From: Escherichia phage UPEC06
Sequence record: MW250786
Length of the DNA stretch: 64,000 nt
Strand: one strand, 5' to 3'
Shown in pieces: positions 33,748 to 57,171 of this stretch. The translations under genes were made by a program, and so were the position numbers. The first letter of the stretch is position 1. The number at the start of each line of letters is the position of its first letter. The notes under the pieces were generated by a model. It did not search any database and was not told the origin of the DNA. It saw only the letters and a program-made list of their open reading frames with translations.

Positions 33748-33754
33748 TTTTTAA

Positions 33755-33779
33755 ATGGGGGCTTCGGCCCCCTCTTTTC
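33755..33779 (+). terminator. stem-loop / weak terminator after the collagen-like fibre gene
   Basis: GGGGGC-TTCG-GCCCCC hairpin followed by TCTTTTCAG. Confidence 0.4.
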
Positions 33780-33793
33780 AGAAAGGAGTTAAT

Positions 33794-34429: not shown

Positions 34430-34459
34430 TAGTAAATAAACTTACTTAAGGAGCATTGC

Positions 34460-36058
34460 ATGAGTAAAAGTATTAGAGGAATGGCAGGTCATAATAACGG
34501 TGTTTTTTACGGAAATGCCCTTTATGACTTAGAAAGAAAGGTTAAAATGGATTTTAAAGATATCATGGAAAAAGGTGATTCCAGCCAAACACCTGGTCCA
34601 GAAGGTCCACAAGGACCAAAAGGGGATACTGGCCCTGCCGGACCTGTAGGTCCTGTAGGTCCGCAAGGACCACAGGGTGAGATCGGGCCTCAGGGTCCTA
34701 CTGGCCCTCAAGGACCTGTCGGAGCTACTGGTCCTACCGGACCTGAGGGTAGTGAAGGACCACAAGGCCCTCAAGGAGAGCAAGGTATAGCTGGTCCAGT
34801 AGGACCAAAAGGGGATACTGGTGAACAAGGTCCTCAGGGAGAGCAAGGACCCGCTGGTCTAAAAGGCGATACTGGGGATATTGGCCCTGCTGGACAAGAA
34901 GGGCCAATAGGTCCGACTGGCCCAACTGGCCCTGCCGGACCAAAGGGGGATGTTGGTCCTCAAGGACCTAAAGGCGAAACTGGTGAGCAGGGACCTATTG
35001 GACCACAAGGCCCACAAGGGGATGTTGGTCCTGTAGGTCCAGCAGGGCTTACTTTCCGAGGTTTTTATGATCCTTTAGTTGAATACTCTCAGAACGATAC
35101 TGTATCTTACAACGGATCTACTTATTTTTCCTTAAGAACAAGTATAGGCGCTAGTCCAGACACATCACTTGAAGATTGGTCTTTATTGGCAGCAGAGGGA
35201 GCAAGAGGCCCACAAGGCCCAACTGGCCCTCAGGGACCTAAAGGCGACCAGGGTGAGATTGGTCCTGCCGGAGCTACCGGTCCTGAAGGTCCGACTGGCC
35301 CAACTGGCCCGACTGGACCCGCTGGACCGAAAGGGGATAAAGGAGATAAAGGAGAGGTTGGACCTCAAGGACCTAAAGGCGACCAAGGGGTTATGGGAGA
35401 ACAAGGACCGCAGGGTATCGCTGGAACTACTGGACCTGCTGGTCCACAAGGACCTAAAGGCGACAAAGGAGATGTTGGCCCTCAAGGTCCCGCTGGTCCA
35501 CAAGGTTTGGATGGTATCCAAGGCCCAGCGGGTCCCCAGGGGATTAGAGGAATACAAGGACCTAAAGGCGACACTGGTGAGCAGGGAGAGAAAGGGGATA
35601 AGGGTGACAAGGGTGAGAAAGGTGATGCAGGAATATCAAGAACATTCCTTAAGGTTAAAACATCATCTGTTGGCACCAATCACGCGATCAAAATGCCAGC
35701 ACCTCTTGATAACCTATCTATAGGCATAAGGCTTGATTCAGCGGTACGTTTTAGTATTAGGGGTTGGATTGATACAGATACGACAGCCAGAAATGTTAGG
35801 GGGGATATTGAAGGCTTCAATAACTCTGAAAATTACTTCAATACAACGGTAAGACAATTGATATCTTCATCAACTGCAACTGGCACAACCCTTGTAGCCG
35901 ATATCAGCGAATTCCAAAGAATTAGGCCATATACATTTAGCTTCTTTGAAACAACAACAGAGACAATGTGGAGAGTAACTATAACTCTCTTCACGTCAGG
36001 GTATGTAGTAACTGACAATCAATGGCTATGTATAGAAGCTGTTAGACTTGATGCGTAA
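34460..36058 (+). CDS. collagen-like repeat fibre protein 2
   Basis: 532 aa; two long Gly-X-Y blocks separated by a short non-collagen segment; non-collagen C-terminal domain. Confidence 0.65.
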
Positions 36059-40442: not shown

Positions 40443-40913
40443 GTGCAAGGTTTTAAATTTAAAAAGACTACAGAGATCACTCTCTGCGGCGGTAAGCGAT
40501 TCACGATTTATCATTGGTCGCCTACTCAAGTTATCCGTAATATGCCTAAAATTGGCAAGCTGGTAGCTGTTCCTTTGGGTACAATGGCAGGCTCTGCTAT
40601 TTCCGGTGGACAAGATTTTCAAGATGCTGTCCCAACCGCAATTCTTTATATTCTGGATCGTATCGATGAAGGTGGTCTGGAAATTATCAACCTTTTACTG
40701 GAAGGCGTTGAAGTAGACAACATGGGCGGCCCGATTGATATCGATGAAGTGTTTGATGGTCACGTAGAAGATTTGTTCAAGTTACTTGCTGAAATCATAC
40801 AGGTGAACTACGGCTGTTTTTTCGGCAAGAGCGGTTTCGGGACAATCGAAAATCTCCTTCAGAAGTTCGGTCTGGTTCGCAAGGTGGACCAACTGGATCA
40901 GACGGAAGCCTGA
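40443..40913 (+). CDS. putative tail assembly chaperone
   Basis: 156-aa acidic protein between tube and tape measure genes. Confidence 0.4.
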   Translation: MQGFKFKKTTEITLCGGKRFTIYHWSPTQVIRNMPKIGKLVAVPLGTMAGSAISGGQDFQDAVPTAILYILDRIDEGGLEIINLLLEGVEVDNMGGPIDIDEVFDGHVEDLFKLLAEIIQVNYGCFFGKSGFGTIENLLQKFGLVRKVDQLDQTEA

Positions 40914-40927
40914 GGCCGCTGAGTACG

Positions 40928-41179
40928 GTGGAAAGGGCCTTGGAGTATTGTAGGAAAAACTCCAGTCTGAAATGGTATGACTATCTTTATTTCCGTGTCA
41001 TGGAGAAATTCAAGGGAGTTAATGAACTTTCTATTGAAAGTGGGGACATGGAAGACCTTCTTAAGAAAAATGAATATATAGATATTCAAGAATATTTGGA
41101 AGGTGTTCAAGAGAAAGAGAAGGAATACGAACGCCAGCGAATGGAACAACAAGAGGCCCAGTTAAAACGGAGAAAGTAA
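40928..41179 (+). CDS. hypothetical protein (possible second tail chaperone ORF)
   Basis: 83-aa charged coiled-coil ORF between chaperone and tape measure genes. Confidence 0.3.
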   Translation: MERALEYCRKNSSLKWYDYLYFRVMEKFKGVNELSIESGDMEDLLKKNEYIDIQEYLEGVQEKEKEYERQRMEQQEAQLKRRK

Positions 41180-41236: not shown

Positions 41237-43660
41237 ATGGCTGTTGAAGTAATTGCAACAACAAAGAACCGAGTCATATTTGAAACTGACAAAGGTTCCT
41301 ATCGAAAAGCTCGTGAGGAGATCCGAAAACTCTCCAACGAATGGAAAAAGGCTTCAACAGAGGCTACCGCTGCCGGAAAGAATTCTCCTGCTGAGGCTTA
41401 TAAACAATCCGCTCGTGAAATGAGACTAGTCAGTAAACGTCTGGAAGAAACTCGGAAGCGTGAGGAGAAGAAGGCCACTGATTATCGTATTGCTCTGGCA
41501 AAGAAAGAAGCCAAGGCAAAAGAGGCAATTCAGAAGGTTTCTGCTGCAAGAATACGACAACAGGTTAAAAGCCTGACGGCTGCATCCCCTGGTTCTGCTG
41601 AGATGAGAAAGTTCTATCAGGAACAGGAGAAAGCTGCCCGTGCTGCTGCAAGATCTGCAAACCGTACAGCGACACCTTTACCGCCTTTCAACATCCAACG
41701 TGTGGAAGCTGCAAATCAATTATTATCTCGCGGTAACAGAGAGCCAGGGTCAGGTATTGTTGGAGATCCTAATAGCCGATTCAACCCTGATTTAATTGCT
41801 GCACAAAACAGAGCGATGCAACGTAGTTCTCGTATCAAAGAGAGAATGGAGAAGCAACAAACTCAAGAACAGGAACGTGAACGTGTCCGCGCTGCTCGTG
41901 CTGCTGCCCGTATTGATGATGTTACAGCACAACAGCGTATTCGTCTATCTTCTCGTTATGGTCGTGGTTATGCAGGTGCTTTGGGTCGTGACTCGGAAGG
42001 TCGTGGGATTGAAGATCTTAATAGACAATTCCGTGCAGGAACGTTATCATCTGGTCAGTATCGTCAAAGCATACAGGCGCTAGAAAGACAATTCCGTGCT
42101 GCACAGTCAAGTGCTGGATCTTTCTCTTCCACACTTAAAGATGTTCGTTCCAGCCTGGTAAGTGCTACTGCCGCATACGGAGTTTTCTCAGCAGGTGCAT
42201 CAATAACTCGTCAAGGTCAATTCTTTGAAGGAATCAACGCAACTTCTCTATTGATCTCTGATTCGGCAGAAGAAGCTGGTCAGCGTGTTAAGTTTGTTCG
42301 TGACGAAGCATACCGTTTAGGTTTGGATCTGAAAACTGCATCGCAGGGATTTACCCAGTTAGCGATCTCTGCTGATGGTGTTATTAGTAAATCTCAAACA
42401 GACGAATTATTTAGTGCATTTTCTGAATATTCCACCGCACTTCAGGTCGATCCCGTAAGATATCAGCGTGGCATTACAGCAATTCAACAGATCCTTGGTA
42501 AAGGTCAAGTAATGGCTGAAGAACTTAAAGGCCAGTTGGCTGAAGCAATTCCAGGTTCCTTGCAGGTATTCTTGAAAGCAACTCAGGAAGCTTTTGGTGA
42601 CACCTCTATCGACATTGCAAAATTGCTCAAGCTGATGGAAGACGGTGAATTGAAAGCCTCCAAGATCATACCTTTGGTTGGTAAATACTATGCAGAGGCT
42701 GCTAATAAAGGTGGTGCACTGGATAAAGCTTTGGAAAGTAACCGTGTTGCTTATCAGCGTTTAACCCAGACTTTTGCAGAGTTCCAAAACAAAATATTCC
42801 AAGGTGGCTTTGGAGAACAACTTACAAGAGTGTTCAATAACTTAGCTACGATCCTGTCAAGTAATGGTAATGTTGCCAGCACCATTGGTAGATTCTTCGG
42901 TAACGTAATTGAAGGGTTTACAGACATGGTTCTTGAAATTCACGATAACTTGGTCCTTCTCGACCGTGTTGTGACTTACTATTTCAAGAAGATTGGTGTT
43001 GAAGGTGAAACTCTTCGACAGGTGTTCGACTGGGGTTCTTATCTCCTCGGGATTGGATTATTCCTTGGTGGATTGACTAAAGTGTTCAACATCCTTGCTA
43101 AGATTGCAGGACTTAAAGGTGCACTTAAGGAAATTCGTGGTACACTCGGTGGTGATTTGGCTACAGGTGGAAAAACGAGCACAGGTGCAAGCACAACTGC
43201 TTCTGGCGGGGCAGGTACACCAGGTCAAACCAGCGTAGCGGGTAGATTCAGTCAGCTTGGTAAGCTTGGCAAACTCTTCGGCCTTGGTACTCTTTACTCA
43301 GCAGGGTCAGAGATCAATGACCGCTTTATTCAAAGTGGAGAGAGCCGATTGGCTGGAGCAGGGCTTGACGCAACAGCTTTCCAGCAGCAATATGGTGTAA
43401 CTCCACAACCTGTCGGGTTAACGGATGTGTTCATGGAGTTGTTTGGTGGCTCTCGTGACATAACTGTAGATCCTAACACTATCTCGACTCCATCTGGTAT
43501 TCGCCCTAGCGGATTTCCTCTGGAAACTCCAGCAGCACCACCTGAAGGTAAGATCACCGTTGAGATCAAGAGTGGAGAGATTCGTCAATATATCCGTGCA
43601 ATTGTGGATGAAGAGAACGGATTCAATATCAACCTGCTCACTCAGGGTGGTAACCAATAA
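41237..43660 (+). CDS. tail tape measure protein
   Basis: 807 aa, Ala/Arg/Gln-rich N-terminal region, Gly-rich segment near C-terminus, canonical position. Confidence 0.7.
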   Translation: MAVEVIATTKNRVIFETDKGSYRKAREEIRKLSNEWKKASTEATAAGKNSPAEAYKQSAREMRLVSKRLEETRKREEKKATDYRIALAKKEAKAKEAIQKVSAARIRQQVKSLTAASPGSAEMRKFYQEQEKAARAAARSANRTATPLPPFNIQRVEAANQLLSRGNREPGSGIVGDPNSRFNPDLIAAQNRAMQRSSRIKERMEKQQTQEQERERVRAARAAARIDDVTAQQRIRLSSRYGRGYAGALGRDSEGRGIEDLNRQFRAGTLSSGQYRQSIQALERQFRAAQSSAGSFSSTLKDVRSSLVSATAAYGVFSAGASITRQGQFFEGINATSLLISDSAEEAGQRVKFVRDEAYRLGLDLKTASQGFTQLAISADGVISKSQTDELFSAFSEYSTALQVDPVRYQRGITAIQQILGKGQVMAEELKGQLAEAIPGSLQVFLKATQEAFGDTSIDIAKLLKLMEDGELKASKIIPLVGKYYAEAANKGGALDKALESNRVAYQRLTQTFAEFQNKIFQGGFGEQLTRVFNNLATILSSNGNVASTIGRFFGNVIEGFTDMVLEIHDNLVLLDRVVTYYFKKIGVEGETLRQVFDWGSYLLGIGLFLGGLTKVFNILAKIAGLKGALKEIRGTLGGDLATGGKTSTGASTTASGGAGTPGQTSVAGRFSQLGKLGKLFGLGTLYSAGSEINDRFIQSGESRLAGAGLDATAFQQQYGVTPQPVGLTDVFMELFGGSRDITVDPNTISTPSGIRPSGFPLETPAAPPEGKITVEIKSGEIRQYIRAIVDEENGFNINLLTQGGNQ

Positions 43661-43728: not shown

Positions 43729-44607
43729 ATGGCTACTGATTTAAAACCTAGCACTTACAAAATGGGTACGTACTCACCTGAGCAGATTGCAGCTATCGAC
43801 AAGGCGTATCAGCAAGGTCAAGCTGAAGAGGCTCGTCAAAAACAGACGGCACAGAATACCAAGTTGCGTGAAGATGTTCAATACACACTCTTTGCTTCTG
43901 GTATCAATACAGGTAGAGCGCCCCTTCTTTACGACAAGAACCAAACAGACGATATTGCTATCCTGTTTGACGTTGTTACTACCCACACTTACACAAAGGA
44001 TTATAACAAGACGAGCTATGCTGTAGAGTCAAAAGCTAAAGCATCCGATCATGTTGTAACTCAAGATGGTAAATTTAGTTTTTCGGCAGTCATTACTGAC
44101 TCTCCTTTAATTATAAATGAGAGAAACTATATTGACTTCGATACAGATAAAAATAACCCGTTACAATCCAAGCGTCCAGCAAAAGCTGTAGAGATCCTTA
44201 AGCAAATTGGTGATGGTCATCAACTTGTTACCTTAGTAACAGAAGATGATATCCTGACGAACTATGTAATCACAAACTTCTCTGTTACTCGTGACAATGG
44301 TCAGGGGGGTAGCATTGCTGTTAGTTTGACCCTTGAAGAGTTCCGTTTCCGTGACATTTCTAAAACAGTTCTGGCAAGAACTACTGCCGATCCTAAGAAA
44401 GCTAAGAATGTAAACTCAGGTACTAAACAGACCGCAGAGAATGGTTCTGTTAGCGATAATGCCCAAGGTAAACGTAAAACACCGTACCTTGGAAAAAATG
44501 CTGCTGCAAAAGAGAGAATTGAAAACGCCCTTACTGGCACGACAGATTTCTCAGGGGAGGCAGGCAAGAAATATGAATTCGACCCAGCATCTTTGAAGAG
44601 GCAATAA
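43729..44607 (+). CDS. putative tail/baseplate protein
   Basis: First gene after the tape measure; SD AAAGGAGG. Confidence 0.35.
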   Translation: MATDLKPSTYKMGTYSPEQIAAIDKAYQQGQAEEARQKQTAQNTKLREDVQYTLFASGINTGRAPLLYDKNQTDDIAILFDVVTTHTYTKDYNKTSYAVESKAKASDHVVTQDGKFSFSAVITDSPLIINERNYIDFDTDKNNPLQSKRPAKAVEILKQIGDGHQLVTLVTEDDILTNYVITNFSVTRDNGQGGSIAVSLTLEEFRFRDISKTVLARTTADPKKAKNVNSGTKQTAENGSVSDNAQGKRKTPYLGKNAAAKERIENALTGTTDFSGEAGKKYEFDPASLKRQ

Positions 44608-44975
44608 TGATTGATCTTAATAAGAAATATGTAAGGACATTCGACTTTGAATTGTCTGGATATCCTGACGAAACTTTCCGTGTTGTTTTGGATTCCGTTA
44701 CCTACGAACTGCGATTCGTTTGGAACGAGAGAGATGAATCTTGGTTTTTCTCCTTAGGGGATATCGGTGTTCCACCAACGATAACAACCAAGCTTACTTG
44801 CTACGCGGATATTATAGGGCCTTATCGCTACCTTGATAATGTGCCGGAAGGAAACTTGTACTTATTCCCACTAAGAGACATTGCTACTCGCGTGGGTCGT
44901 TATAACGTTGGCCCTCTCTCTGGTGTTCAAATGATTTATGCATCAAGAGAGGAAGATGTGGAGGCGATCAATTAA
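44607..44975 (+). CDS. putative baseplate protein
   Basis: Translationally coupled small gene in the baseplate block. Confidence 0.3.
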   Translation: MIDLNKKYVRTFDFELSGYPDETFRVVLDSVTYELRFVWNERDESWFFSLGDIGVPPTITTKLTCYADIIGPYRYLDNVPEGNLYLFPLRDIATRVGRYNVGPLSGVQMIYASREEDVEAIN

Positions 44976-45931
44976 TGAAAGCATTGGAAAGGACATATAC
45001 TTTAGTTATCGGAAGGCCTGTTTATATTGGTGAAAAGCCAGTCAACATTGAGCGCTACGCCACTAACAGTAACCAAGGTGAAGCATATGAGATCAAGGAT
45101 CTTCATATTACCTTTCAGTTAAAGAAAGACAACTCAAAGGAACCTAACAAGGGATACGTAAGTGTATTTAACCTTTCCGATGACGTTGTTAACTACCTCA
45201 GTATAAACCAAAGGGAATCTCTCGCTGTCCTTTTAAAAGCGGGATACAATGGTGACGAAAAACTTATCTTTTCTGGAACAATCGAGTTCGTGGAGGATAC
45301 TTTCTCAGAGGAAACACGAGAGACTAAGTTTATTTTTGGTGATGGAACCCTGAACTTGACTACCGCCACAACATCCCGATCTTACCGAAAGGGAACACCT
45401 GTGAATCAGGTTCTTAATGATCTTATCTCTGATCTTAAGCTACCCAAAGGTCGTGTTGTTCCTTTTGGTGCTGACACATTACAGAGTTCTATGGCATTTA
45501 CTGGGAATGCGGCACAGAACTTAGAAAACCTTGCAAAAAATACCGGATCTACCTTTTCGATACAGGATGGTGCTGTCTATTGGACAAAAGAAGGTTCTCG
45601 GTTTGCAAATGTTATGTTTGAGATCTCTGAAGAAGGCGGGATGGTTGGCACACCAACATTAAAGCAACCAAACATCTCGAAGAAGAAAAAGAAGAAAGAT
45701 ACAAAAGATACTTCAAATAAGAAGGAGAAGAATATAAAGGAGGACGTTGGTTTAACAGTAACCACACTCCTTAATGGTGCAATCCTTCCTGAGTCTACAG
45801 TATATCTGAACACCCGTTACATTAAGGGTTTTTACAAAGTCATTGAGTTGACGCACAGAGGTGGTTACGAAACAGGCGACTGGGTAACCGAATTAGGTCT
45901 TGCAGAAACACGAGGGGAGTTGATAAGATAA
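44975..45931 (+). CDS. putative baseplate hub/tail protein with poly-lysine insertion
   Basis: Position; internal KKKKKKDTKDTSNKKEKNIKED segment. Confidence 0.35.
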   Translation: MKALERTYTLVIGRPVYIGEKPVNIERYATNSNQGEAYEIKDLHITFQLKKDNSKEPNKGYVSVFNLSDDVVNYLSINQRESLAVLLKAGYNGDEKLIFSGTIEFVEDTFSEETRETKFIFGDGTLNLTTATTSRSYRKGTPVNQVLNDLISDLKLPKGRVVPFGADTLQSSMAFTGNAAQNLENLAKNTGSTFSIQDGAVYWTKEGSRFANVMFEISEEGGMVGTPTLKQPNISKKKKKKDTKDTSNKKEKNIKEDVGLTVTTLLNGAILPESTVYLNTRYIKGFYKVIELTHRGGYETGDWVTELGLAETRGELIR

Positions 45932-45934
45932 CTT

Positions 45935-46627
45935 ATGGCTTACGTAGATCGTTATGATGCAGCACTGTCTGTCTTTGTCGGAAGATATCTGCGAAACAAC
46001 GTGCATACTAACATCCGAGGAACAGTGGTTGGCGTTAATTACGCCATTCCATCTGTTGATGTTAAACCTATGGCACAAACTGAATTTGAGAACGGAACAG
46101 TAGAAGCTTATCCGGTTATTTACGATGTTCCGATTAACTTCCCTTCCGGTGCGGGTGGAAAGGCAAGATTATCTATGCCTATAAAAGTCGGAGATCTGGT
46201 AGGTGTTGCTTTCTCTGAAAGAAACGAAGGTGACTTCAAGGATGTGAATACCCATCAACTATTCCCTGGTTGGGCTGTGACACAGATATTTACCGAAGGT
46301 AATGGAAAGGTTGCTCATCCAGATAACGTTGTTCTTGAGAATGACAAAGGCGTTATGACATTGATGCCTGATGGGACGATGACGTTTCAGAATCCCGCTG
46401 CCAATCTAAAGATTGAGCAAAGTGGCAAGATGACATTTTCTAATGGCCCTGCAAACATAGAAGTAATGGAATCTGGAATGGTAAGGGTGAATGGTTGCAC
46501 CATAACAACCTCCGGTAACGTGATCACAGCTTCCGGTGTTGATCTGGAAGATTTTTATGCCGACTACCTCAACCATAGACATAGTGGCGTTGAAAGAGGT
46601 GGTGATATAAGCGGGGTTAAAGTATAA
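45935..46627 (+). CDS. putative baseplate spike protein (gpV / Mu gp45-like)
   Basis: 230 aa, upstream of W/J-like genes. Confidence 0.4.
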   Translation: MAYVDRYDAALSVFVGRYLRNNVHTNIRGTVVGVNYAIPSVDVKPMAQTEFENGTVEAYPVIYDVPINFPSGAGGKARLSMPIKVGDLVGVAFSERNEGDFKDVNTHQLFPGWAVTQIFTEGNGKVAHPDNVVLENDKGVMTLMPDGTMTFQNPAANLKIEQSGKMTFSNGPANIEVMESGMVRVNGCTITTSGNVITASGVDLEDFYADYLNHRHSGVERGGDISGVKV

Positions 46628-49390: not shown

Positions 49391-51025
49391 ATGGCTAGAC
49401 CAACAACACCGATTGTTGTCTTTGCGGCACAAGATGTTAACCTTCCTGGCACTGGAAGACCTAACAAATCAAAACCGATTGATGACCTTTTAGCGAAGGG
49501 CTATGACAAAGGACAAAAACCAGCGGCAGAGGAATTCAACTATATTCTTCACCAATCTGGTGCTTGGCTTAACTGGATCGTAGAAGAGAAGTTCCCTGAA
49601 GTTGAAGAAGAATATAAGCGACTGATTCAGGAACTCGAAACACGAGTAAACAATCAACTGGAAGTTATTCGTGAAGATGTTGCAAACGTAAGACAATCAG
49701 TTGCAACCTTGAGAACTTATGTAGAGCAAACTGTTGCAGACATTCGTCGTGAGATCACTGCGGTTGATCAGCGTGTTACTCGTTTGTCTCAAGACTTGGA
49801 TAATGCTGTTTCCAGATTAAACGCCCGTATTGATGAGCTTGAACCTCGTTTAGTTCCGATCGGTGCAATTCTTACTTGGGCAGGCCAAACACCTCCGGCG
49901 GGATTCTTGGAATGTAATGGACAGGTATACAGTACATCTCAAAACCCGAAACTTTATCAAGTCCTTGGTAGGAACGTAGTACCTGATTATCGTGGATTGT
50001 TCCTTCGTGGCTGGGCGCACGGATCTGGCGCTTACGATCCTGACTCTGGTCGTGCTTTGGGTTCTATTCAAGGTGATGCGATTCGAAACATTACTGGCGC
50101 GATGGGTTACGAAAGTATTCGTACTGACCACGGATATCGTGAGAGTGGTGCACTTTATACGCAATATAACTCAAACTCAGGTCCTGATCACGATCGTAAA
50201 AACCCAGCGGGTGATGTTCGATTTGATGCAAGCCGTGTTGTTCCGACTGCACCAGAAAACAGACCTAAGAACGTCGCAGTGATGTATATTATCAAGACTG
50301 ATCAGGCACAAGGTACGGGAAGTCTGTCACCAACTGCACTTGTTACTACGCCGGACACTATTACAAACCGCGTAGGGTTTACTCAAGGGATTTCTGCTCA
50401 GGTTCTCCCTGCAAACTTGGCAAGTCAATACCCTGTGACGTGGACTTCTCAGAACGGTAATGTTGCAACAGTGGATAGTGCAGGTAACGTAAGATTAACT
50501 GGTCCAGGTGAAACTAACATTATCGCCTCTATCTCTACTGGTATCTCTGCCCAAGTTAAAATAGTTTCATATACACCACTGACAGCAATCAGTATCGGTA
50601 GCATACCTAGTGTAGAGGTTAATGATTCCGAGGTTATTCCTGTTAATAGAACACCTGCTAACTCTAACGAGCCTCTCGTGTATTCTACCAGTAATGCTAA
50701 CGTCGCTGTTGTAACTCAAAGCGGTTACGTATCTGGTGTTTCTCCAGGTACAGCGGTAATAACAGTTCGTGGGTCTATCACAGGCATCCAAGCCACAAGA
50801 CAGGTCACTGTAATTCCTGCAACGATTGTTCAGACCATAGAGGATGTTCGTTTAGGTCTTGAGCAACAGACGACAATGAATGGCGATGATTATACAAATC
50901 CTGTGCGTGCTCCGGCGGGTTGTGTTATTACTGGCGTTGTATCAGCAGGTCTTGGGTTAAATCAAGGTTATTATAAACCGATCCAGAAGCGTATATCTGG
51001 CGTATGGGTAACGGTGGAGGGTTAA
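49391..51025 (+). CDS. tail fibre protein with tail-collar domain and Ig-like repeats
   Basis: PIGAILTWAGQTPPAGFLECNGQVYSTSQNPKLYQVLG...YRGLFLRGW matches the phage tail-collar motif; C-terminal half has repeated Ig-like segments. Confidence 0.6.
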   Translation: MARPTTPIVVFAAQDVNLPGTGRPNKSKPIDDLLAKGYDKGQKPAAEEFNYILHQSGAWLNWIVEEKFPEVEEEYKRLIQELETRVNNQLEVIREDVANVRQSVATLRTYVEQTVADIRREITAVDQRVTRLSQDLDNAVSRLNARIDELEPRLVPIGAILTWAGQTPPAGFLECNGQVYSTSQNPKLYQVLGRNVVPDYRGLFLRGWAHGSGAYDPDSGRALGSIQGDAIRNITGAMGYESIRTDHGYRESGALYTQYNSNSGPDHDRKNPAGDVRFDASRVVPTAPENRPKNVAVMYIIKTDQAQGTGSLSPTALVTTPDTITNRVGFTQGISAQVLPANLASQYPVTWTSQNGNVATVDSAGNVRLTGPGETNIIASISTGISAQVKIVSYTPLTAISIGSIPSVEVNDSEVIPVNRTPANSNEPLVYSTSNANVAVVTQSGYVSGVSPGTAVITVRGSITGIQATRQVTVIPATIVQTIEDVRLGLEQQTTMNGDDYTNPVRAPAGCVITGVVSAGLGLNQGYYKPIQKRISGVWVTVEG

Positions 51026-51027
51026 TT

Positions 51028-51540
51028 ATGAGAATGAATAACTTCAAGCTTTATACACCGGAAGTTAAATCTTTCGGAGAAGGAGTTCAGTATTTTCAGG
51101 ATGATAAGGGTCGTGATTTCTACGACTCTCGTGCACTATTCAAAAAGAAATATGTTGTTTTCTTTGATGAGCATAATATTGTCCGTGGCTGGGCAAAGAG
51201 TGAAGAAGTTACCCGTCTTCACCCAGGTGGTTTATCTGTTGTGGATCTTAATACCCTCCCTAAAGATTTTTCTTTGCAAGGTGGTGTTTGGTCATTCAAC
51301 GGAAAACAGGTAGTTAAGGCAGACTATGATCCTGCTTTTAGCACCGCTGCAAGAAAGGCTGGCATTCTGCAAGTGATCGGTTCTGTTATCGTTCCGCTTC
51401 AGGATGCTGTTGAATTGGGAGATGCTACAGATGATGAGCTTGAGAAGTATAACGATCTTCGTAAGATGAGAGTTAAAGTCATGCGTATCCCTGATAGCAC
51501 CTCCCCTGGTGATATCGACTGGTCAGAGTTCACCTTTTAA
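51028..51540 (+). CDS. putative tail fibre assembly protein
   Basis: Directly downstream of and overlapping the tail fibre gene end; SD GGAGGG. Confidence 0.35.
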   Translation: MRMNNFKLYTPEVKSFGEGVQYFQDDKGRDFYDSRALFKKKYVVFFDEHNIVRGWAKSEEVTRLHPGGLSVVDLNTLPKDFSLQGGVWSFNGKQVVKADYDPAFSTAARKAGILQVIGSVIVPLQDAVELGDATDDELEKYNDLRKMRVKVMRIPDSTSPGDIDWSEFTF

Positions 51541-51579
51541 CCTTAGATGAGTCGGGCTTCGGCCCGACTATGGAGACTT

Positions 51580-51912
51580 ATGATTGTTGATATAATGGCA
51601 GTTCTTAAAGCACTTTGGGGTCTTTTAACATTTATTTTGCTGGGTGCACTAAAGATCTTTTACACCGACTTTAAAAAATTAGAGTCACGTCAAAGCGAGC
51701 TTGAAAAAGATGTTCTTCGTTTGAAGGAATCTGCGGTTACTAAGGATAGTATCGATGCCATTCTTGACCGTAAGATAAAACATATCACTGATACGATCCA
51801 GGATATTAGGACCGATATCACAGATATGCGAAAGGAAGCAAAAGAAGAAAACCACGCTCTACAGAAGGATATTCGAGAATTACTAAACAAAATTATTGAG
51901 AACCGCAAATGA
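51580..51912 (+). CDS. membrane protein with coiled-coil (holin-like or other membrane function)
   Basis: N-terminal TM helix (MIVDIMAVLKALWGLLTFILLGAL) then charged coiled-coil; start at internal ATG after the 51550-51569 hairpin. Confidence 0.35.
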   Translation: MIVDIMAVLKALWGLLTFILLGALKIFYTDFKKLESRQSELEKDVLRLKESAVTKDSIDAILDRKIKHITDTIQDIRTDITDMRKEAKEENHALQKDIRELLNKIIENRK

Positions 51913-52367
51913 TTACAGCCATAATATATGGCATTTGTTTCGTAATCCTTGCTACTCGAAAAGAGAGTGGAACAAAGATAATGGCTGGGCTTTGCCTAGC
52001 CTATCTCGTATTGGAGAACCTGATCCTTTGGTTCTTCTCTACGCAACAATATTTCGACATCACTCTTTATTTTAATGTTCTCTGGACATTGGATTCGATA
52101 CTGCTTTTCACTATGGGTTGTACAGTGAAAGGATTACGACAAAAACTTATCGTATGCCTAAGTATTCCGTTCATGCTTATTCAAGTGTTTGCAATCCAAT
52201 ATCCAGAATTGTTCCCCTTATGGGTTTACGAATTCGCTCTTAGAGACGCTCACAAATATTTCATAGAAACCTTTGTGTTCGTTTATTCTTGGAAGGATAA
52301 TACCGTACCGGAATGGATAAGGACAGCAGTGGTGATATTTCTGGTGCTCATTGCCCATATGGTATGA
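51909..52367 (+). CDS. polytopic membrane protein (about 4 TM helices)
   Basis: Four hydrophobic segments; overlapping start/stop with neighbours. Confidence 0.4.
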   Translation: MITAIIYGICFVILATRKESGTKIMAGLCLAYLVLENLILWFFSTQQYFDITLYFNVLWTLDSILLFTMGCTVKGLRQKLIVCLSIPFMLIQVFAIQYPELFPLWVYEFALRDAHKYFIETFVFVYSWKDNTVPEWIRTAVVIFLVLIAHMV

Positions 52368-52389
52368 ACATTGATAATGAAGGTGATCT

Positions 52390-52650
52390 ATGTTAAAATT
52401 TCTCAAAGACCTCGTTACCTCTGCGGTGGAACCAGATAAAGCTTCCCATACAAAGTTTTGGTCTAACGTAGGTATGGCTGCTATGACTGCCGTCTTTCTA
52501 TGGTATGGATTCAACAATACATTGCCTGAATGGTATGTGTGGCTTTATGCTCCTACGGTAGTGGCTCCACACCTTTTGAGTGATCTCATTAACCTCCGCT
52601 GGGGATTATCTTTGAAAAAAGATAAAGGCCCTTCTGACGAAAACAAGTAA
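52390..52650 (+). CDS. small membrane protein (holin-like topology)
   Basis: Two hydrophobic segments and a charged C-terminus (KKDKGPSDENK). Confidence 0.35.
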   Translation: MLKFLKDLVTSAVEPDKASHTKFWSNVGMAAMTAVFLWYGFNNTLPEWYVWLYAPTVVAPHLLSDLINLRWGLSLKKDKGPSDENK

Positions 52651-52662
52651 GAGGAGAAAACT

Positions 52663-55600
52663 GTGTCGTCTAATACTGATATATTGGCACTGGTAAGTAC
52701 CGAAGCAGATCTTGCTGTTGACCAGATCATTGAAGACTCTCGAAGACTTCATTTGATCGTCAACGGAACTGCAACAGAACAAGCTGTTACAGAAGATGGT
52801 AGCTTAATCCCTAGTGTACGTAAAGCGATAATTGATAACTTTTATTTTAAAACTCCACCGTTACCGTGGAGAAATGGAAGTTCAGTTATTGAATTCAATC
52901 AGTTATATGCATTTACCGATGTAAATGGCAACGTAACTTGGTGGTATGCCCCAGGTGCAACTACCAGCACTCCTGTCGTTATGCGAGACAGTCCAATCAA
53001 CGACGGTAAGTTCAGACCTTTCTTCGATAAAGGTAACATTCAAGAAACTTACGCCCCTATCCTTTCCCCTGTTTTTCGTGGAAACCCTACTGTACCTCTT
53101 GCTGCTGAAGGTGATAACTCATTTACTATCGCGAACACAGCTTGGGTTAGTCGAGAAATAGAAAAAGTACGTGGTGAGGTTCTTGAAGAGTCCAGAGGTG
53201 AATTCCAAAACATTATCGTTGCAGATGATGCGAGTCTGAAAGATCTCTATGTAAGTGGAGAAACCATCTTCACTGGCGACAGGATCGCTGCTCTTGATGC
53301 CGAGTTATCTTTAAAAAGATTACGAATGACAGGGACAGACGCAGAAATCGCATTTGAACAAAATGGCGTTCCACCCCAGGCAGGGTTAACAAAAAGAACA
53401 AATATCAAGCCTTTCCAAGTCACCACTGGTGTTGTTGATACCGATAATATAACTGCGAGAGAGATCAAGGTTGGAAATACCTCTGTTTCCACGAATTCTC
53501 TTGATGTTGATGGATTCATGCAAGGTGACTATCTTCACTTAGAGGGTAATGCCAATAACGCAGAAGACCGCCCACAACTGATCGTTGACGGTATTGCGGA
53601 AATAAATACTCTTCGTGTGACGAACACCATTGAAGGATTGAAGGCTGACGTTGAAGGTCTGGATATTAATCCTAACAGCATTGTGGTTGAAAGAACTGCG
53701 GAGATTAAGGGAAATACAACCCTTGGTGCAGATCTTGCCGTTACTGGCAATACGGTATTGAAAAATGTAAGAATCGAAGGTACTCTCACGGGTGCTGGAA
53801 TCGGTGTTGACGGGAAAGACATTTCCCCTCGTAATGTGAGTGCAACATCCGTTACTGTGGCAGAGAGCTTAAACATTACTGGACCTACTACGGCTTCCGG
53901 CGACGTTACGGTAAACAACCTGACGGTTAATGGAACACTCAGGGCCGATATCGACTTTGGAACTGCTGCTGTTGAATTCCAAGATCTGACTGTGACTAAC
54001 AAGGCAACGATCAAGGATCTTGAAATCACCGGAAACCTGACGGGAGTTACAGTCTCTGTTGATGGTGAAGCAATCTCCCCTTCTTCGGTGACAACCACAG
54101 GAAACATCGATGTTGGTAACAACATGCGTGTTCGTGGTGATATTACTCTGGACGGTGAGTTAAGTATCCCAAGCTTAGATACTGGGGACATAACGGCTGC
54201 TGCAATTGATGGTGCGAGCCTCTCAGTTAGTGGCGACATTACCGCAGGAACAACTTCGACCACAACGGTTAACAATCTTGTAGTCACAGGAACCACTACA
54301 GGAATCACTGTAACGGGCAATGTTGACGGACAAGACATTCTCCCATCCTCTGTAGAAACAACGTCTGTAGTGGCCTCTGAGAGAGTTACAACGGCAAACC
54401 TGACATCTACAGGTGACACTCAGGTAAATAACCTGACAATTACTGGAACTGTAACAGGATTCGATGTAGATCTTACCGGAAAGGACATTCAGGTTAATAC
54501 CTTGACGGTTACTCGCGGGTCAACTTTTGACGAGGTTACTGCTAATAACATAACCAACAATCAAAAGATTACCACAGTAGACCTTCAGGTTACTGGAAAC
54601 CTGACGAATGCAGACGGTGAACAATTCTTTGCAAACGTCACTGGTCAAGATATACTTCCTAATAGTGTGCAGTCTGCAACGTCTGTGAGAACTAAAACGC
54701 TACGTGTCGAAGAGACTAGCCTATTGGAAGGTGCTGTTACCTTAAATGATGGTTTGACTATCACTGGTGGTAATATCACATCTGTTCAAGGTCAAGCAAG
54801 CTTCAATGACGTACAGGTATTTGGATCTCTTCTGGACGCGAATGGTAATGCCTTAGGGACAGCGGAAAGCATAAACGGTAAAGATATCTCTCCTCGTAGC
54901 GTTACTGCTCAAGTTGAGATTCAGACTACTGCAATTGTTGCTACAGGTCAAGCTGAAGTTGGTTCTTTGATTTCAACTGGACAAGTAATGGCAGGAAGCT
55001 TAGAGGTTTCAGGGATAGGTAATATTGGTCAGGTTATTACCGACGACGTTCGTGCTGGAAAGGTAACTTCTGGTAACACCGTTATTACTCGTACTGTTGG
55101 ATCTAGCGATCCTGCTCTTGAAGTTCGTGGACCAGGTGAGATTCAGGGTGACCTTAATGTAACCGGAACTGTAACTGGTAACATTGACCTTAGCTCTCAA
55201 GACGTTAACGTTGCTTCAATGACCTCAACGGGAACAGTAAATGCCCTTTCCATTGAGTCTCGTACATCGGTAACTGGATTGTCTGGTACATTCGGTGAAG
55301 ATTATGAAGGTGCACCTACCTATGGTATAACTTCTCTTTCCGGCGCAAACATCAACAAGAACCTTCGAGTTGGTGGAAACCTGACTGTTGTTGGTAACAT
55401 CTCTGGCAATATCGACTTATCTGGAAAGGCGATCGAGCCTGCATCTTTGTCTACCACGACAGCTACGTTAACGACGGCGAACATAACAGACCTGACTGTA
55501 ACTGGTCAGTTTAATATCCCGACTGTACCGTTAAATGTTCAATCCCTTAGTTCTGAAAACGCTATTTCCGCAAGCAAGTTCAGCACCACACCAAAAGAAG

Positions 55601-55896
55601 TAAGCACCACCTCTTCTTCTTACATCCCAGACGGCTCAACGAGCATATATAACGTAAACGTTATAAATGATGTTGAAGTGAAAGCGCCGATTGGCCTGTT
55701 GAGTTCAGGAAAAGGTGAGTCGGTATTCCTCTTCTTTGAACAGGATGGTACTGGTGGACATGCGGTAACATTCGGATCGGAGTTTGTTGTGCATGGTACT
55801 GAAACCATCAAAACAGATGCAAACACTGTATCGGTAGTTAACATGGTTTATCGTGGCAAAGGCCCATTGATTGACGTATTCATCACTCGTCGCTAA
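52663..55896 (+). CDS. large tail fibre / tail spike protein
   Basis: 1077 aa, Thr/Val/Gly/Asn-rich with quasi-repeats (VTGN.TG...DISP.SV); downstream of baseplate genes. Confidence 0.55.
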   Translation: MSSNTDILALVSTEADLAVDQIIEDSRRLHLIVNGTATEQAVTEDGSLIPSVRKAIIDNFYFKTPPLPWRNGSSVIEFNQLYAFTDVNGNVTWWYAPGATTSTPVVMRDSPINDGKFRPFFDKGNIQETYAPILSPVFRGNPTVPLAAEGDNSFTIANTAWVSREIEKVRGEVLEESRGEFQNIIVADDASLKDLYVSGETIFTGDRIAALDAELSLKRLRMTGTDAEIAFEQNGVPPQAGLTKRTNIKPFQVTTGVVDTDNITAREIKVGNTSVSTNSLDVDGFMQGDYLHLEGNANNAEDRPQLIVDGIAEINTLRVTNTIEGLKADVEGLDINPNSIVVERTAEIKGNTTLGADLAVTGNTVLKNVRIEGTLTGAGIGVDGKDISPRNVSATSVTVAESLNITGPTTASGDVTVNNLTVNGTLRADIDFGTAAVEFQDLTVTNKATIKDLEITGNLTGVTVSVDGEAISPSSVTTTGNIDVGNNMRVRGDITLDGELSIPSLDTGDITAAAIDGASLSVSGDITAGTTSTTTVNNLVVTGTTTGITVTGNVDGQDILPSSVETTSVVASERVTTANLTSTGDTQVNNLTITGTVTGFDVDLTGKDIQVNTLTVTRGSTFDEVTANNITNNQKITTVDLQVTGNLTNADGEQFFANVTGQDILPNSVQSATSVRTKTLRVEETSLLEGAVTLNDGLTITGGNITSVQGQASFNDVQVFGSLLDANGNALGTAESINGKDISPRSVTAQVEIQTTAIVATGQAEVGSLISTGQVMAGSLEVSGIGNIGQVITDDVRAGKVTSGNTVITRTVGSSDPALEVRGPGEIQGDLNVTGTVTGNIDLSSQDVNVASMTSTGTVNALSIESRTSVTGLSGTFGEDYEGAPTYGITSLSGANINKNLRVGGNLTVVGNISGNIDLSGKAIEPASLSTTTATLTTANITDLTVTGQFNIPTVPLNVQSLSSENAISASKFSTTPKEVSTTSSSYIPDGSTSIYNVNVINDVEVKAPIGLLSSGKGESVFLFFEQDGTGGHAVTFGSEFVVHGTETIKTDANTVSVVNMVYRGKGPLIDVFITRR

Positions 55897-55898
55897 TA

Positions 55899-55925
55899 GA
55901 GGCCCTTCGGGGCCTTTTCTTTTTA
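55899..55925 (+). terminator. rho-independent terminator
   Basis: GAGGCCC-TTCG-GGGCCTT followed by TTCTTTTT. Confidence 0.55.
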
Positions 55926-55935
55926 GGAGGACAAC

Positions 55936-57171
55936 ATGATCCCTTTTCCAATTATTAATTTCGGTGGCAGTGTTCCACTACCTGTAGGCGTTACAATCAA
56001 GTATGCAGTAAGTACCAGCACCGGAAATATTTTTATTCTGCTTACCAATGGGCATCTATATGTAACTGGATCTAATTATCTAAACGGACTTGGTAAAACA
56101 GGGACCACAAATAATGCAACTTCGGGATGGTCACTTACTAACACAGGTGTTGAAGAAGTTTATGAGGCAGGAACAGAAAGTACACTGTACGGCGGTGTGT
56201 GGGTTAAGAAAAATAATAACCACTATGAATATATCTCTGCTGTAATCTTCCCCACTGTTGACACAACTCTCCAAAACAGTTGGAACGTCTTGCCTGAATC
56301 TGCATACATTGTCGATGGCGTAAATATCTTATCTTCCGCAATACAAATAGCCAGATCATACGCGATCCAGCCCGACGGCACTGTTTACAGACTTCTTCCA
56401 GAGGGACCTCAAGTAGCTTGGCCTGAGAAAACAAAATACCTGTATTTTGCAAACTATAATGCTATTCGTGTCGAGGTTGACGGAACTTTAAAATACCGAG
56501 GCGACAATGGTATAGATCAAGTGGCAGGCACTTCTGCCGGAACAACATTATCAACTTGGACAACCATCGGGGATTCTTCTGTAAGGTATATTAGGGCAAA
56601 ATGTGCTCGTGGTCAAGTGGCTAACACGAGTGGCGGTTCAGGTGCTCAATCTATTGTACTTGTTGTTGCACAGAGGGAAGATGGGTCATGGGATGCAGTT
56701 GGATCGGCAGCAAGAGCAGGGATAAACTCAACCAACGTCCTCGGTCCTAATTTAGCACCTATGACAAGCATTCCTGCTGGAGTTGAAGTTTACCTAACTA
56801 ACCAGATCAGTTATACAAACGCAAGTGTGAGCACTAGGGCAGCACTGCAAGTATTCATCTCTGACAGGGTTAATGGAGTTTATCAATCGACAGGTGGACA
56901 AGGTGGATACACATACTCCTTATTTAGAGATCTTCCTATAACCACCAACGCAACATCTTTTGAAAGCATACATCAAGATATTATAGATGATGGCGGCATT
57001 CTCCATATGACTGGCTCATTGGCTGACACTTTCAAAGTGATTGTTAGTGGTAATGGTAATCTTTACTGGACAGGGAGAGGTTACACAGGGGCTATGTACC
57101 CTGCTGACTTTACGGCCTCTAATACGATAGCTCAGAAGTTTAACTTGGAAGGTATAGTTATTCCAGCATAA
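55936..57171 (+). CDS. putative tail fibre / receptor-binding protein
   Basis: 411-aa Gly/Thr/Ser/Asn-rich protein, last gene of the rightward late block. Confidence 0.35.
   Translation: MIPFPIINFGGSVPLPVGVTIKYAVSTSTGNIFILLTNGHLYVTGSNYLNGLGKTGTTNNATSGWSLTNTGVEEVYEAGTESTLYGGVWVKKNNNHYEYISAVIFPTVDTTLQNSWNVLPESAYIVDGVNILSSAIQIARSYAIQPDGTVYRLLPEGPQVAWPEKTKYLYFANYNAIRVEVDGTLKYRGDNGIDQVAGTSAGTTLSTWTTIGDSSVRYIRAKCARGQVANTSGGSGAQSIVLVVAQREDGSWDAVGSAARAGINSTNVLGPNLAPMTSIPAGVEVYLTNQISYTNASVSTRAALQVFISDRVNGVYQSTGGQGGYTYSLFRDLPITTNATSFESIHQDIIDDGGILHMTGSLADTFKVIVSGNGNLYWTGRGYTGAMYPADFTASNTIAQKFNLEGIVIPA

What the first reader, a model, noticed from the sequence alone, without database searches (positions are those of the whole stretch)
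44975..45931. Poly-lysine insertion in a baseplate-block protein, encoded by an A-rich slippage-prone tract
The segment KKKKKKDTKDTSNKKEKNIKED is encoded by aagaagaaaaagaagaaagat. A-rich tracts are prone to polymerase or ribosomal slippage, and a charged insertion in a baseplate component could affect host-surface interaction.
Basis: seen in the sequence. Interest (0 to 1): 0.3.

Follow-up and report, generated by a model that had tools for sequence, protein, structure and literature searches.

The report
Lysine-rich flexible loop in phage baseplate hub
The six-lysine run is real, but it is an ordinary, stably inherited part of a floppy, positively charged loop found in the central baseplate hub protein of this whole group of E. 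coli-type phages, and I found no sign that it acts as a slippage site.

Summary
ORF 44975-45931 (+) encodes 318 aa with K236-K241, encoded by AAG AAG AAA AAG AAG AAA at 45680-45697. This is the only lysine run longer than 3 in the window (about 0.001 expected by chance).

The protein is the trimeric central baseplate hub. It is 78% identical to the cryo-EM-solved phiTE hub (9CUY chain X) and identical to QUL77286.1 of Escherichia phage UPEC06.

The lysines lie at the tip of a beta-hairpin that AlphaFold2 models as disordered (residues 234-254, pLDDT below 50). All 120 nearest homologues carry a basic loop there, 14-41 aa long with net charge +5 to +14. This phage has one of the shortest, so it is not a lineage-specific insertion. 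More distant hubs have a shorter, roughly neutral loop.

The slippage idea is not supported:
- The longest A run is 5 nt.
- There is no in-frame X XXY YYZ heptamer.
- Both alternative frames stop within 15 codons.
- K6 is unchanged in 17 close relatives, including some at about 77% nucleotide identity whose AAA/AAG codons are shuffled.

The only length change seen is one in-frame (AAG)3 to (AAG)4 variant in the second lysine cluster.

The loop most likely acts as an electrostatic tether. This is an ordinary finding of low interest.

The parts
44975..45931 (+). Baseplate hub gene (318 aa), a gp27/Mu gp44-like trimeric central hub. Its start overlaps the stop of the upstream gene (TAATG).
   Evidence: phrog_196 'baseplate hub', E 1.2e-74. 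PDB 9cuy_X phiTE hub, E 3e-167, about 78-80% identity. AF2 model mean pLDDT 84, Foldseek TM 0.88/0.92 to 9cuy_X, with probability 1.0 matches to Mu gp44, T4 gp27 and VgrG. Exact match to QUL77286.1 of Escherichia phage UPEC06.
45671..45739 (+). Polybasic, disordered hairpin-tip loop (aa 233-255, NISKKKKKKDTKDTSNKKEKNIK; net charge +8). It lies between the conserved strands GMVGTPT (aa 222-228) and EDVGLTVTTLLNG (aa 256-268).
   Evidence: AF2 pLDDT is below 50 for residues 234-254 only, flanked by strands 223-229 and 260-265. Among 120 homologues the loop is 14-41 aa, net charge +5 to +14, 36% Lys, while the rest of the protein has a median charge of -6. The phiTE cryo-EM chain models 305 of 330 residues.
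45680..45697 (+). K6 run: AAG AAG AAA AAG AAG AAA, a perfect 9-nt x 2 tandem repeat with a longest A run of 5.
   Evidence: Length is invariant in 17 close relatives, with synonymous AAA/AAG shuffling.
45716..45724 (+). Second lysine cluster (AAT AAG AAG = N248 K249 K250). This is the only place where an in-frame length variant was seen among close relatives.
   Evidence: LTH01-type relatives have AAG AAG AAG here. Metagenome contig L014 (SRR31617738) has AAG AAG AAG AAG, giving a 319-aa protein.
44607..44975 (+). Spacer/plug protein (Pam3 gp18-like, 122 aa, pI 4.5, net charge -7). It is an acidic neighbour of the hub and a candidate partner of the basic loop.
   Evidence: PF22479, E 4e-19. 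Charge. In phiTE the spacer sits between hub and wedge (PMC11972413).
45935..46627 (+). Central spike / puncture apparatus (gpV-like N-terminal domain plus Apex motif, 230 aa, pI 5.1). It binds beneath the hub.
   Evidence: PF18352 and PF18946. Charge. 1:1 hub-spike binding in phiTE.
43729..44607 (+). Tube initiator (Dit-like, 292 aa). It forms the ring above the hub.
   Evidence: PF21821, E 3e-28. phiTE description.
41237..43660 (+). Tape measure protein (807 aa). In phiTE its C-terminus is buried inside the hub. Here the last 120 aa have a net charge of -7.
   Evidence: phrog_5255, E 2e-291. Charge. phiTE paper.

Best explanation
**What it is (shown).** The gene encodes the trimeric central hub of a contractile-tail baseplate. 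The phage is Vequintavirinae-like and is identical at this protein to Escherichia phage UPEC06. The lysine run is part of a 20-25-residue intrinsically disordered, strongly basic loop at the tip of a beta-hairpin in the C-terminal beta-sandwich region of the hub. The whole clade shares this loop (phiTE, CR3, rV5-like, phi92-like phages and many metagenomic relatives). Its sequence and length drift, but its positive charge is always kept, while the folded remainder of the protein is acidic.

**How it works (inferred).** The loop acts through charge rather than specific sequence. It would be a flexible cationic tether that contacts acidic neighbours packed around the hub: spacer pI 4.5, spike pI 5.1, wedge proteins pI 4.5-4.8, and a tape-measure C-terminus of net charge -7. 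Once the hub is released and driven through the envelope, it could instead or additionally contact anionic envelope components such as LPS or phospholipid head groups.

**How it evolves.** Length changes in the loop arise by occasional in-frame triplet or short-repeat replication slippage in the AAG/AAA-rich DNA.

**What it is not.** The K6 tract does not behave as a frameshift or phase-variation site, and its AAA/AAG interleaving keeps A-runs short.
For: **Identity.**
- phrog_196; 9cuy_X, E 3e-167.
- AF2 plus Foldseek TM 0.88-0.92, with hits to Mu gp44, T4 gp27 and VgrG.
- Canonical gene order.

**Disorder.**
- pLDDT below 50 only at residues 234-254.
- The phiTE model has 305 of 330 residues, and the 317 alignment columns fit the missing 25 residues lying in the loop. 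This last point is inference.

**Charge conservation.**
- 120 of 120 homologues have loop net charge +5 to +14, against a median of -6 for the rest of the protein. Majority-residue frequency is 0.51 in the loop and 0.81 in the flanks.
- The basic character is kept with different residues: KRRLEKK in rV5-like phages, KAKAKEKAGEKPKA in phiTE-like, KKKKKK here.

**Acidic neighbours.**

**Stability of K6.**

**In-frame triplet change.**

**Short A-runs in independent poly-K versions.** AAA AAG AAA AAG AAA AAG AAA in L012 and similar patterns in L011 and L013; the longest A-run is 5-6. The chance of no adjacent AAA pair in a K6 or K7 run is 0.15-0.33 per lineage.

**Threshold for ribosome sliding.** Robust sliding in E. 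coli needs about A11 (Koutmou et al. 2015, PMC4363877).
Against: - No tool here could show whether the loop points into the hub lumen, up to the tube initiator, or outward to the spacer and wedge. The partner is therefore a guess.
- The phiTE and Bas63 structure papers do not mention the loop.
- In the wider superfamily the equivalent loop is near neutral: median charge 0, and only 14% reach +5 or more. Pam3 lacks the loop entirely. A basic loop is therefore not essential for hub function.
- Lys-rich low-complexity sequence can grow by mutational slippage without selection.
- The codon-alternation statistic rests on only about four independent lineages.
Confidence: 0.55

Rival explanations
1. 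Neutral low-complexity filler. The hairpin tip is a permissive site where AAG/AAA-rich repeats expand and contract by replication slippage. The lysine richness would be a by-product of that mutational process, and the loop has no role of its own.
For: - Sequence and length are poorly conserved (14-41 aa).
- Pam3 has no loop, and distant relatives have neutral loops.
- The loop is disordered in the model and probably unmodelled in cryo-EM.
- A perfect 9-nt tandem duplication and an (AAG)n variant show that slippage operates.
Against: - Net charge is positive (+5 or more) in all 120 homologues, including Arg-rich versions (KRRLEKK) whose codons are not A-tracts.
- K236 and P232 are at least 90% conserved.
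- K6 is kept exactly across lineages at about 77% nucleotide identity, with several synonymous changes inside the run. That pattern indicates purifying selection on the peptide.
Confidence: 0.27
2. Lumen-facing DNA- or tape-measure-binding element. Three basic loops would project into the hub channel and hold the acidic tape-measure C-terminus before ejection, or grip or guide the DNA end during ejection.
For: - phiTE-type loops (KAKAKAKxxEKPKAPSKKKK) resemble histone H1-like DNA-binding tails (my own knowledge; sequences).
- The last 120 aa of the tape measure have net charge -7.
- In phiTE the tape-measure C-terminus is buried in the hub and contacts two of the three hub subunits (PMC11972413).
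Against: - The tape-measure-to-hub contacts described for phiTE are hydrophobic (Ile/Tyr on the hub inner surface), not electrostatic.
- Tail-channel surfaces are generally electronegative so that DNA can pass (general knowledge).
- Up to 3 x 41 disordered residues would crowd a channel of about 25-30 Å.
- Orientation was not testable here.
Confidence: 0.13
3. The A-rich tract is a polymerase or ribosome slippage hotspot that generates frameshifted or length-heterogeneous hub protein, possibly as a regulatory or phase-variable device.
For: - G AAA AAG resembles the dnaX A AAA AAG motif at six of its seven bases, and tRNA-Lys is slippage-prone on A AAG (my own knowledge).
- In a forced-pause in vitro system, 5 consecutive As allowed some extra lysine addition (PMC4363877).
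- One relative has an extra AAG in the neighbouring cluster.
Against: - The longest A run is 5, one of 102 such runs in the window. Robust ribosome sliding needs about A11.
- There is no in-frame X XXY YYZ heptamer. The -1 frame stops after 10 codons and the +1 frame after 15, which would remove the conserved C-terminal strands.
- The only nearby RNA hairpin starts about 30 nt downstream and is lost in relatives; the consensus fold is only -4.3 kcal/mol.
- The nucleotide sequence of the run is not conserved while its length is.
- No frameshifting indel was seen in 17 relatives.
Confidence: 0.04

Closest known systems
Hub protein of Pectobacterium phage phiTE (PDB 9CUY chain X / 9MJN; Hodgkinson-Bean et al., Nat Commun 2025, PMC11972413)
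   Same: - 78-80% identity over the full length; E 3e-167; TM 0.88-0.92.
- Same neighbours: tube initiator, spacer, spike, tape measure.
- A basic loop at the same hairpin tip.
   Different: - The phiTE loop is 13 residues longer in the pairwise alignment (the whole protein is 12 aa longer) and is K/A/P-rich (SSKKLIKAKAKAKSDEAEGKKPKAPSKKKKEHDIK) rather than a homopolymeric K6.
- The host and receptor differ: phiTE is flagellotropic.
- The paper does not discuss the loop, and 25 residues of the chain are absent from the model.
Phi92 gp137 (PDB 21VQ chain M) and gp85 (PDB 9ZD7 chain J) hub proteins
   Same: Same family (profile E 9e-77 and 2e-15). Both have a shorter basic stretch at the same position: KPTQKVTKSSKKAKKPTDG and SGTAQKKDQRRRRG.
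   Different: Much lower identity, shorter loops and no lysine homopolymer.
Cyanophage Pam3 hub gp19 (PDB 7YFZ), the minimal myophage baseplate hub
   Same: Same fold (Foldseek probability 1.0, TMt 0.75) and the same conserved flanks, GxPT ... G-hydrophobic-x-V-x-x-L-(I/L)-N.
   Different: 229 aa. The hairpin closes with a tight turn (GTPTITDNGIKVKALIN) and has no basic loop.
Mu gp44 / T4 gp27 / P2 gpD / T6SS VgrG N-terminal hub fold
   Same: - Same overall hub fold; Foldseek probability 1.0 for 1WRU, 9KI1, 1K28 and VgrGs.
- For Mu gp44, a positively charged surface was proposed to contact the host membrane electrostatically (Kondou et al. 2005, J Mol Biol). I recall this from memory; it was not retrieved here.
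   Different: - Only 8-15% identity.
- In Mu the positive charge is on a folded surface, not a disordered loop.
- No membrane contact has been shown for this family.
Programmed -1 ribosomal frameshift sites (dnaX A AAA AAG; phage tail chaperone G/GT)
   Same: A Lys-codon A-rich sequence containing AAA AAG, located in a tail gene cluster.
   Different: - No full heptamer, no conserved stimulator, no trans-frame ORF and no nucleotide conservation.
- The window does contain a canonical candidate elsewhere: T TTT TTC at 40817-40823 in the tail chaperone gene, with the -1 frame open to 41179.
Ribosome sliding on poly(A) lysine tracks (Koutmou et al. 2015, eLife, PMC4363877)
   Same: Iterated lysine codons translated by E. 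coli ribosomes.
   Different: Robust sliding required about 11 consecutive As, with little at A9-A10. Here AAG codons break the run into stretches of 5 As or fewer, which is the pattern that paper describes as selected for in genomes.

Membership tests
gp27-like central baseplate hub (phiTE hub / phrog_196) | Significant sequence similarity to an experimentally located hub protein | tested here: met
   9cuy_X, E 3.1e-167, full length; phrog_196, E 1.2e-74.
gp27-like central baseplate hub (phiTE hub / phrog_196) | Hub fold: beta-sandwich tube-like modules plus an alpha/beta spike-binding domain | tested here: met
   AF2 pLDDT 84, pTM 0.82. Foldseek TMq 0.88 to 9cuy_X; probability 1.0 to Bas63, E217, Mu gp44, T4 gp27 and VgrG.
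gp27-like central baseplate hub (phiTE hub / phrog_196) | Gene position between the tape measure / tube initiator / spacer and the central spike | tested here: met
   Gene order is TMP 41237-43660, Dit-like 43729-44607, Pam3_gp18-like 44607-44975, hub, then gpV-like spike 45935-46627. The same neighbours occur in metagenomic relatives.
gp27-like central baseplate hub (phiTE hub / phrog_196) | Trimer at the baseplate centre in the virion | not testable with these tools
   Inferred from the phiTE structure (PMC11972413).
Programmed -1 ribosomal frameshift site | In-frame slippery heptamer X XXY YYZ | tested here: not met
   The codons are TCG AAG AAG AAA AAG AAG AAA GAT. The best candidate is G AAA AAG, whose first base is wrong.
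Programmed -1 ribosomal frameshift site | Stimulatory RNA structure 5-9 nt downstream, conserved in relatives | tested here: not met
   The hairpin at about 45721-45788 (z = -2.6) starts about 30 nt downstream. It is not kept in relatives; the consensus fold is -4.3 kcal/mol.
Programmed -1 ribosomal frameshift site | Extended or conserved trans-frame ORF | tested here: not met
   The -1 frame stops after 10 codons and the +1 frame after 15.
Programmed -1 ribosomal frameshift site | Nucleotide-level conservation of the slippery sequence | tested here: not met
   AAA/AAG order differs among clades (AAG AAG AAG AAA AAG AAA; AAA AAG AAG AAG AAA AAG) while K6 is kept.
Simple-sequence contingency (phase-variable) locus | Long homopolymer (about 7-8 nt or more) or a multi-copy short tandem repeat in the coding sequence | tested here: not met
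   Longest A run is 5. The only repeats are a 9-nt unit x 2 and (AAG)2.
Simple-sequence contingency (phase-variable) locus | Length polymorphism among near-identical genomes, including frameshifting lengths | tested here: not met
   17 relatives have K6 unchanged and no out-of-frame indel. There is one in-frame +3-nt variant in the second cluster. Read-level heterogeneity could not be examined.
Poly(A)-track ribosome sliding element | About 11 or more consecutive A nucleotides | tested here: not met
   A5 here. Threshold from PMC4363877.
Clade-typical polybasic hub loop (a descriptive class defined here, not a curated family) | Disordered segment with net charge of +5 or more between the conserved G-M-x-G-x-P and E-D-x-G motifs | tested here: met
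   The query loop has net charge +8 over 23 aa. All 120 of the 120 nearest homologues have +5 to +14. pLDDT is below 50.

The most novel reading that the evidence does not exclude
The conserved-charge, variable-sequence disordered loop could be a functional electrostatic device of Vequintavirinae/phiTE/phi92-type baseplate hubs that published structures have overlooked because it is invisible in the maps. One possibility is a cationic tether that locks the acidic spacer, wedge or tape-measure C-terminus until triggering. Another is an anchor that fixes the released tube tip to anionic LPS or phospholipid during penetration. Its length would be tuned between lineages by in-frame triplet slippage.
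Probability: 0.3. Interest if true: 0.3.

Novelty: new member of a known kind. Interest (0 to 1): 0.12.

Why it matters
It matters little for genome biology. The tract is not a recoding or phase-variation site, and the gene is an orthologue of a hub whose structure is already solved.

The analysis has three modest uses:
- It assigns a function (central baseplate hub) to a protein annotated 'hypothetical' in UPEC06, A7_1, A5-4, A73, W70 and LTH01, and mis-annotated as 'fatty oxidation complex, alpha subunit' in Salmonella phage SSBI34.
- It flags a charge-conserved disordered loop that structural papers on phiTE and Bas63 do not discuss. This loop could be tested cheaply by loop deletion or charge reversal.
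- It gives a worked example of AAA/AAG interleaving keeping a poly-lysine tract genetically stable.

Tried and rejected
1. **Frameshift or slippage reading.** I checked the heptamer, the alternative frames, the downstream RNA structure and its conservation, and indels in relatives. All were negative.
2. **Lineage-specific insertion.** Rejected by the alignment of 120 homologues.
3. **Universal feature of the hub superfamily.** Also rejected. Distant representatives have neutral loops of about 19 aa, and Pam3 has none.
4. **Literature on the loop.** The phiTE and Bas63 structure papers and a full-text search for lysine-rich hub loops gave nothing. No supplementary text is held for the phiTE paper, so the modelled residue ranges could not be read.
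5. **Loop orientation (lumen or exterior).** The tools return no coordinates or residue-level structural alignments. I considered a fused-chain AlphaFold run (hub plus spacer, or a trimer as a single chain) and dropped it, because the output (pLDDT and secondary structure only) could not show contacts.
6. **Reverse-strand ORFs** at 45577-45813 and 45612-45767. These are poly-Phe/Ser shadows of the Lys codons, not genes.
7. **AAG enrichment in the run.** 4 of 6 codons are AAG against 41% genome-wide. This is not significant on its own (binomial p of about 0.19, my arithmetic).
Full report
**1. Observation**

The ORF 44975-45931 (+) exists and encodes 318 aa. Residues 233-259 read NISKKKKKKDTKDTSNKKEKNIKEDVG. 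The six lysines (K236-K241) are encoded by AAG AAG AAA AAG AAG AAA at 45680-45697.

As a protein feature this is far from chance. With 6.4% lysine over 18,492 codons in 79 putative genes, about 0.0012 runs of six or more are expected. No other gene in the window has a run longer than three.

As a nucleotide feature it is ordinary. The longest homopolymer is A5. The window holds 102 A-runs of 5 or more, and the same gene has an A6 at 45535. Tandem Repeats Finder reports only a perfect 9-nt x 2 repeat.

**2. What the gene is**

- PHROGs assigns it to phrog_196 'baseplate hub' (E 1e-74). Pfam has no model for it.
- A PDB sequence search finds the hub protein of Pectobacterium phage phiTE (9CUY chain X) at E 3e-167. 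It also finds phi92 gp137, a gp85 (9ZD7), Bas63 gp20 and Pam3 gp19.
- An AlphaFold2 model built on 54 homologues has mean pLDDT 84 and pTM 0.82.
- Foldseek places that model on 9cuy_X with TM 0.88/0.92, and with probability 1.0 on Mu gp44, T4 gp27, pyocin and VgrG hubs.
- The gene order is the canonical simple-myophage baseplate: sheath, tube, chaperone, tape measure, Dit-like tube initiator, Pam3-gp18-like spacer, hub, gpV-like spike with Apex motif, gp25-like, J-like and I-like wedge proteins, then fibres.
- The window is about 94% identical in DNA to Escherichia phages A7_1, A5-4, A73, W70 and LTH01, all classified as Vequintavirinae.
- The hub protein is identical to QUL77286.1 of Escherichia phage UPEC06.

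**3. What the lysine segment is**

In the model the only segment with pLDDT below 50 is 234-254. It is flanked by strands 223-229 and 260-265, so it is the disordered tip of a beta-hairpin.

The deposited phiTE chain has 330 residues in sequence but 305 in the structural library. The 317 alignment columns are what one expects if the missing 25 residues are the loop. This is an inference, because I could not read the coordinates.

In an alignment of the 120 nearest database homologues (48-98% identity), every protein has a loop here between the conserved G-M-x-G-x-P-x-x-K-x-P and K-E-D-x-G-L motifs:
- Length is 14-41 aa (median 29).
- Net charge is +5 to +14 (median +9), with 36% Lys.
- The rest of the protein has a median charge of -6.
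- Majority-residue frequency is 0.51 in the loop and 0.81 in the flanks.

The basic character is realised with different residues: KRRLEKKSKSK in rV5-like phages, KKLIKAKAKEKAGEKPKAPSKK in phiTE/CR3-like phages, and KKKKKK here. The loop of this phage is the 7th shortest of 120, so it is not a lineage-specific insertion.

An exhaustive profile search finds 5,545 representative clusters for the family. In 144 of the best distant representatives, a slightly wider stretch (P227 to G259, 31 aa and net charge +7 in this phage) has a median of 19 aa and a median net charge of 0. Only 14% reach +5 or more. Pam3 gp19 closes the hairpin with a tight turn. The polybasic, extended state is therefore a clade-level trait, not a property of all hubs.

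**4. Slippage**

- *Ribosomal frameshifting.* No in-frame X XXY YYZ heptamer exists; the nearest is G AAA AAG. The -1 frame stops after 10 codons and the +1 frame after 15, which would delete the conserved C-terminal strands.
- *Stimulatory RNA.* A hairpin with z = -2.6 starts about 30 nt downstream. It is not maintained in relatives; the consensus fold is -4.3 kcal/mol.
- *Ribosome sliding.* Robust sliding in E. coli needed about A11, with little at A9-A10 (Koutmou et al. 2015, PMC4363877). Here the maximum is A5.
- *Close GenBank relatives.* The five relatives are 95-97% identical in nucleotides across this gene and have the same tract length. One (LTH01) carries a synonymous AAG to AAA change.
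- *Metagenomic relatives.* Four relatives at 76-79% nucleotide identity still have exactly K6, but with reshuffled codons (AAG AAG AAG AAA AAG AAA; AAA AAG AAG AAG AAA AAG). Further LTH01-like contigs agree. This is the signature of purifying selection on the peptide, not of an unstable tract.
- *Independent poly-K versions.* Other lineages alternate AAA and AAG, for example AAA AAG AAA AAG AAA AAG AAA, so A-runs stay at 5-6. The probability of no adjacent AAA pair is 0.15-0.33 per run. This suggests avoidance of long A-runs but rests on about four lineages.
- *The only length variant.* Among close relatives I found one in-frame (AAG)3 to (AAG)4 expansion in the second lysine cluster. It comes from a single 1.5-kb metagenome contig.

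In-frame repeat slippage is thus the plausible source of the family-wide length drift. Frameshifting slippage is not supported.

**5. Mechanism**

*Shown:* the loop is disordered, cationic and conserved in charge, and it sits on an otherwise acidic hub. Without the loop the hub has net charge -7 and pI 5.1.

*Context from phiTE* (PMC11972413): the hub trimer sits under the tube-initiator ring and binds the spike 1:1. It encloses the tape-measure C-terminus through hydrophobic contacts and is separated from the wedge by the spacer.

*Neighbours here are acidic*:
- spacer pI 4.5
- spike pI 5.1
- gp25-like protein pI 4.9
- wedge proteins pI 4.8 and 4.5
- last 120 aa of the tape measure, net charge -7

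*Inferred:* the loop is an electrostatic tether to one of these partners. Alternatively, after the hub is released and pushed through the envelope, it contacts anionic LPS or phospholipid. The latter echoes the proposal made for the positively charged face of Mu gp44 (Kondou et al. 2005, recalled from memory).

I rate the identity of the gene and loop at about 0.95 and the charge-based functional role at about 0.4. The main rival is neutral low-complexity filler (0.27). A lumen-facing DNA- or tape-measure-binding role is less likely (0.13). The slippage-site reading is close to excluded (0.04).

**6. Novelty and verdict**

This is a known protein family with a solved 78%-identical orthologue. 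The tract is stable and not a recoding signal.

The loop itself is not discussed in the phiTE or Bas63 papers or elsewhere in the searched literature. It is a small, testable loose end rather than a discovery. Interest is 0.12, and the novelty class is 'new member of a known kind'.

Noticed in passing
window 40793-41179 (slippery site 40817-40823): The tail assembly chaperone gene (40443-40913, phrog_3840) contains a canonical in-frame heptamer T TTT TTC at 40817-40823. Its -1 frame is open from 40793 to 41179. This is the classic G/GT-type programmed -1 frameshift just upstream of the tape measure, and it is the real recoding candidate in this tail module.
   Followed up: partly
window 20220-22060: A tRNA cluster. 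ARAGORN finds Met, Tyr, Pro, Gly and Gln. Rfam adds a weaker tRNA at 20220-20298 that ARAGORN missed, and does not report the 87-nt tRNA-Tyr at 21563-21649.
   Followed up: no
window 44975-45931; GenBank records of relatives: The hub is annotated 'hypothetical protein' in UPEC06, A7_1, A5-4, A73, W70 and LTH01. In Salmonella phage SSBI34 (MZ520832) it is annotated 'fatty oxidation complex, alpha subunit', an evident mis-annotation.
   Followed up: partly
window 45122-45154 (aa 50-60, KKDNSKEPNKG): The tip of the N-terminal hairpin (strands 45-52 and 59-65) may be the pseudo-symmetric counterpart of the variable loop; that equivalence is my guess from the secondary-structure order. This tip is also Lys-rich but nearly invariant across 54 homologues: K51, D52 and N58 are invariant, and N53, S54, K55, P57, K59 and G60 are at least 90% conserved. 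That suggests a precise structural contact, in contrast with the drifting C-terminal loop.
   Followed up: no
L014 (Logan SRR31617738 contig), equivalent to window 45716-45724: A single natural variant has an extra AAG, (AAG)3 to (AAG)4, giving a 319-aa hub. It could be real in-frame triplet slippage or an assembly artefact of a 1.5-kb contig.
   Followed up: partly
window 45721-45788: An RNA hairpin pairs the purine-rich Lys/Glu codons (GAAGGAG...AAGGAGG) with downstream CUCCUU/CCUUCC. It is -20.8 kcal/mol with z = -2.6 in this phage, but is not conserved in relatives at about 77% identity. It is probably incidental.
   Followed up: yes
window 45577-45813 and 45612-45767 (- strand): Reverse-strand ORFs of 78 and 51 aa contain FFFFFF or SSFSSS. 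They are mirror images of the Lys codons, not genes.
   Followed up: yes
window 29947-36058 and 49391-57171: Several large tail-fibre genes flank the baseplate block: 1266 aa, 532 aa with collagen-like or repeated fibre-domain hits, 544 aa containing an Ig domain, and 1077 aa. This fits the multi-fibre 'Swiss-army-knife' adsorption apparatus typical of rV5/phi92-like phages.
   Followed up: no
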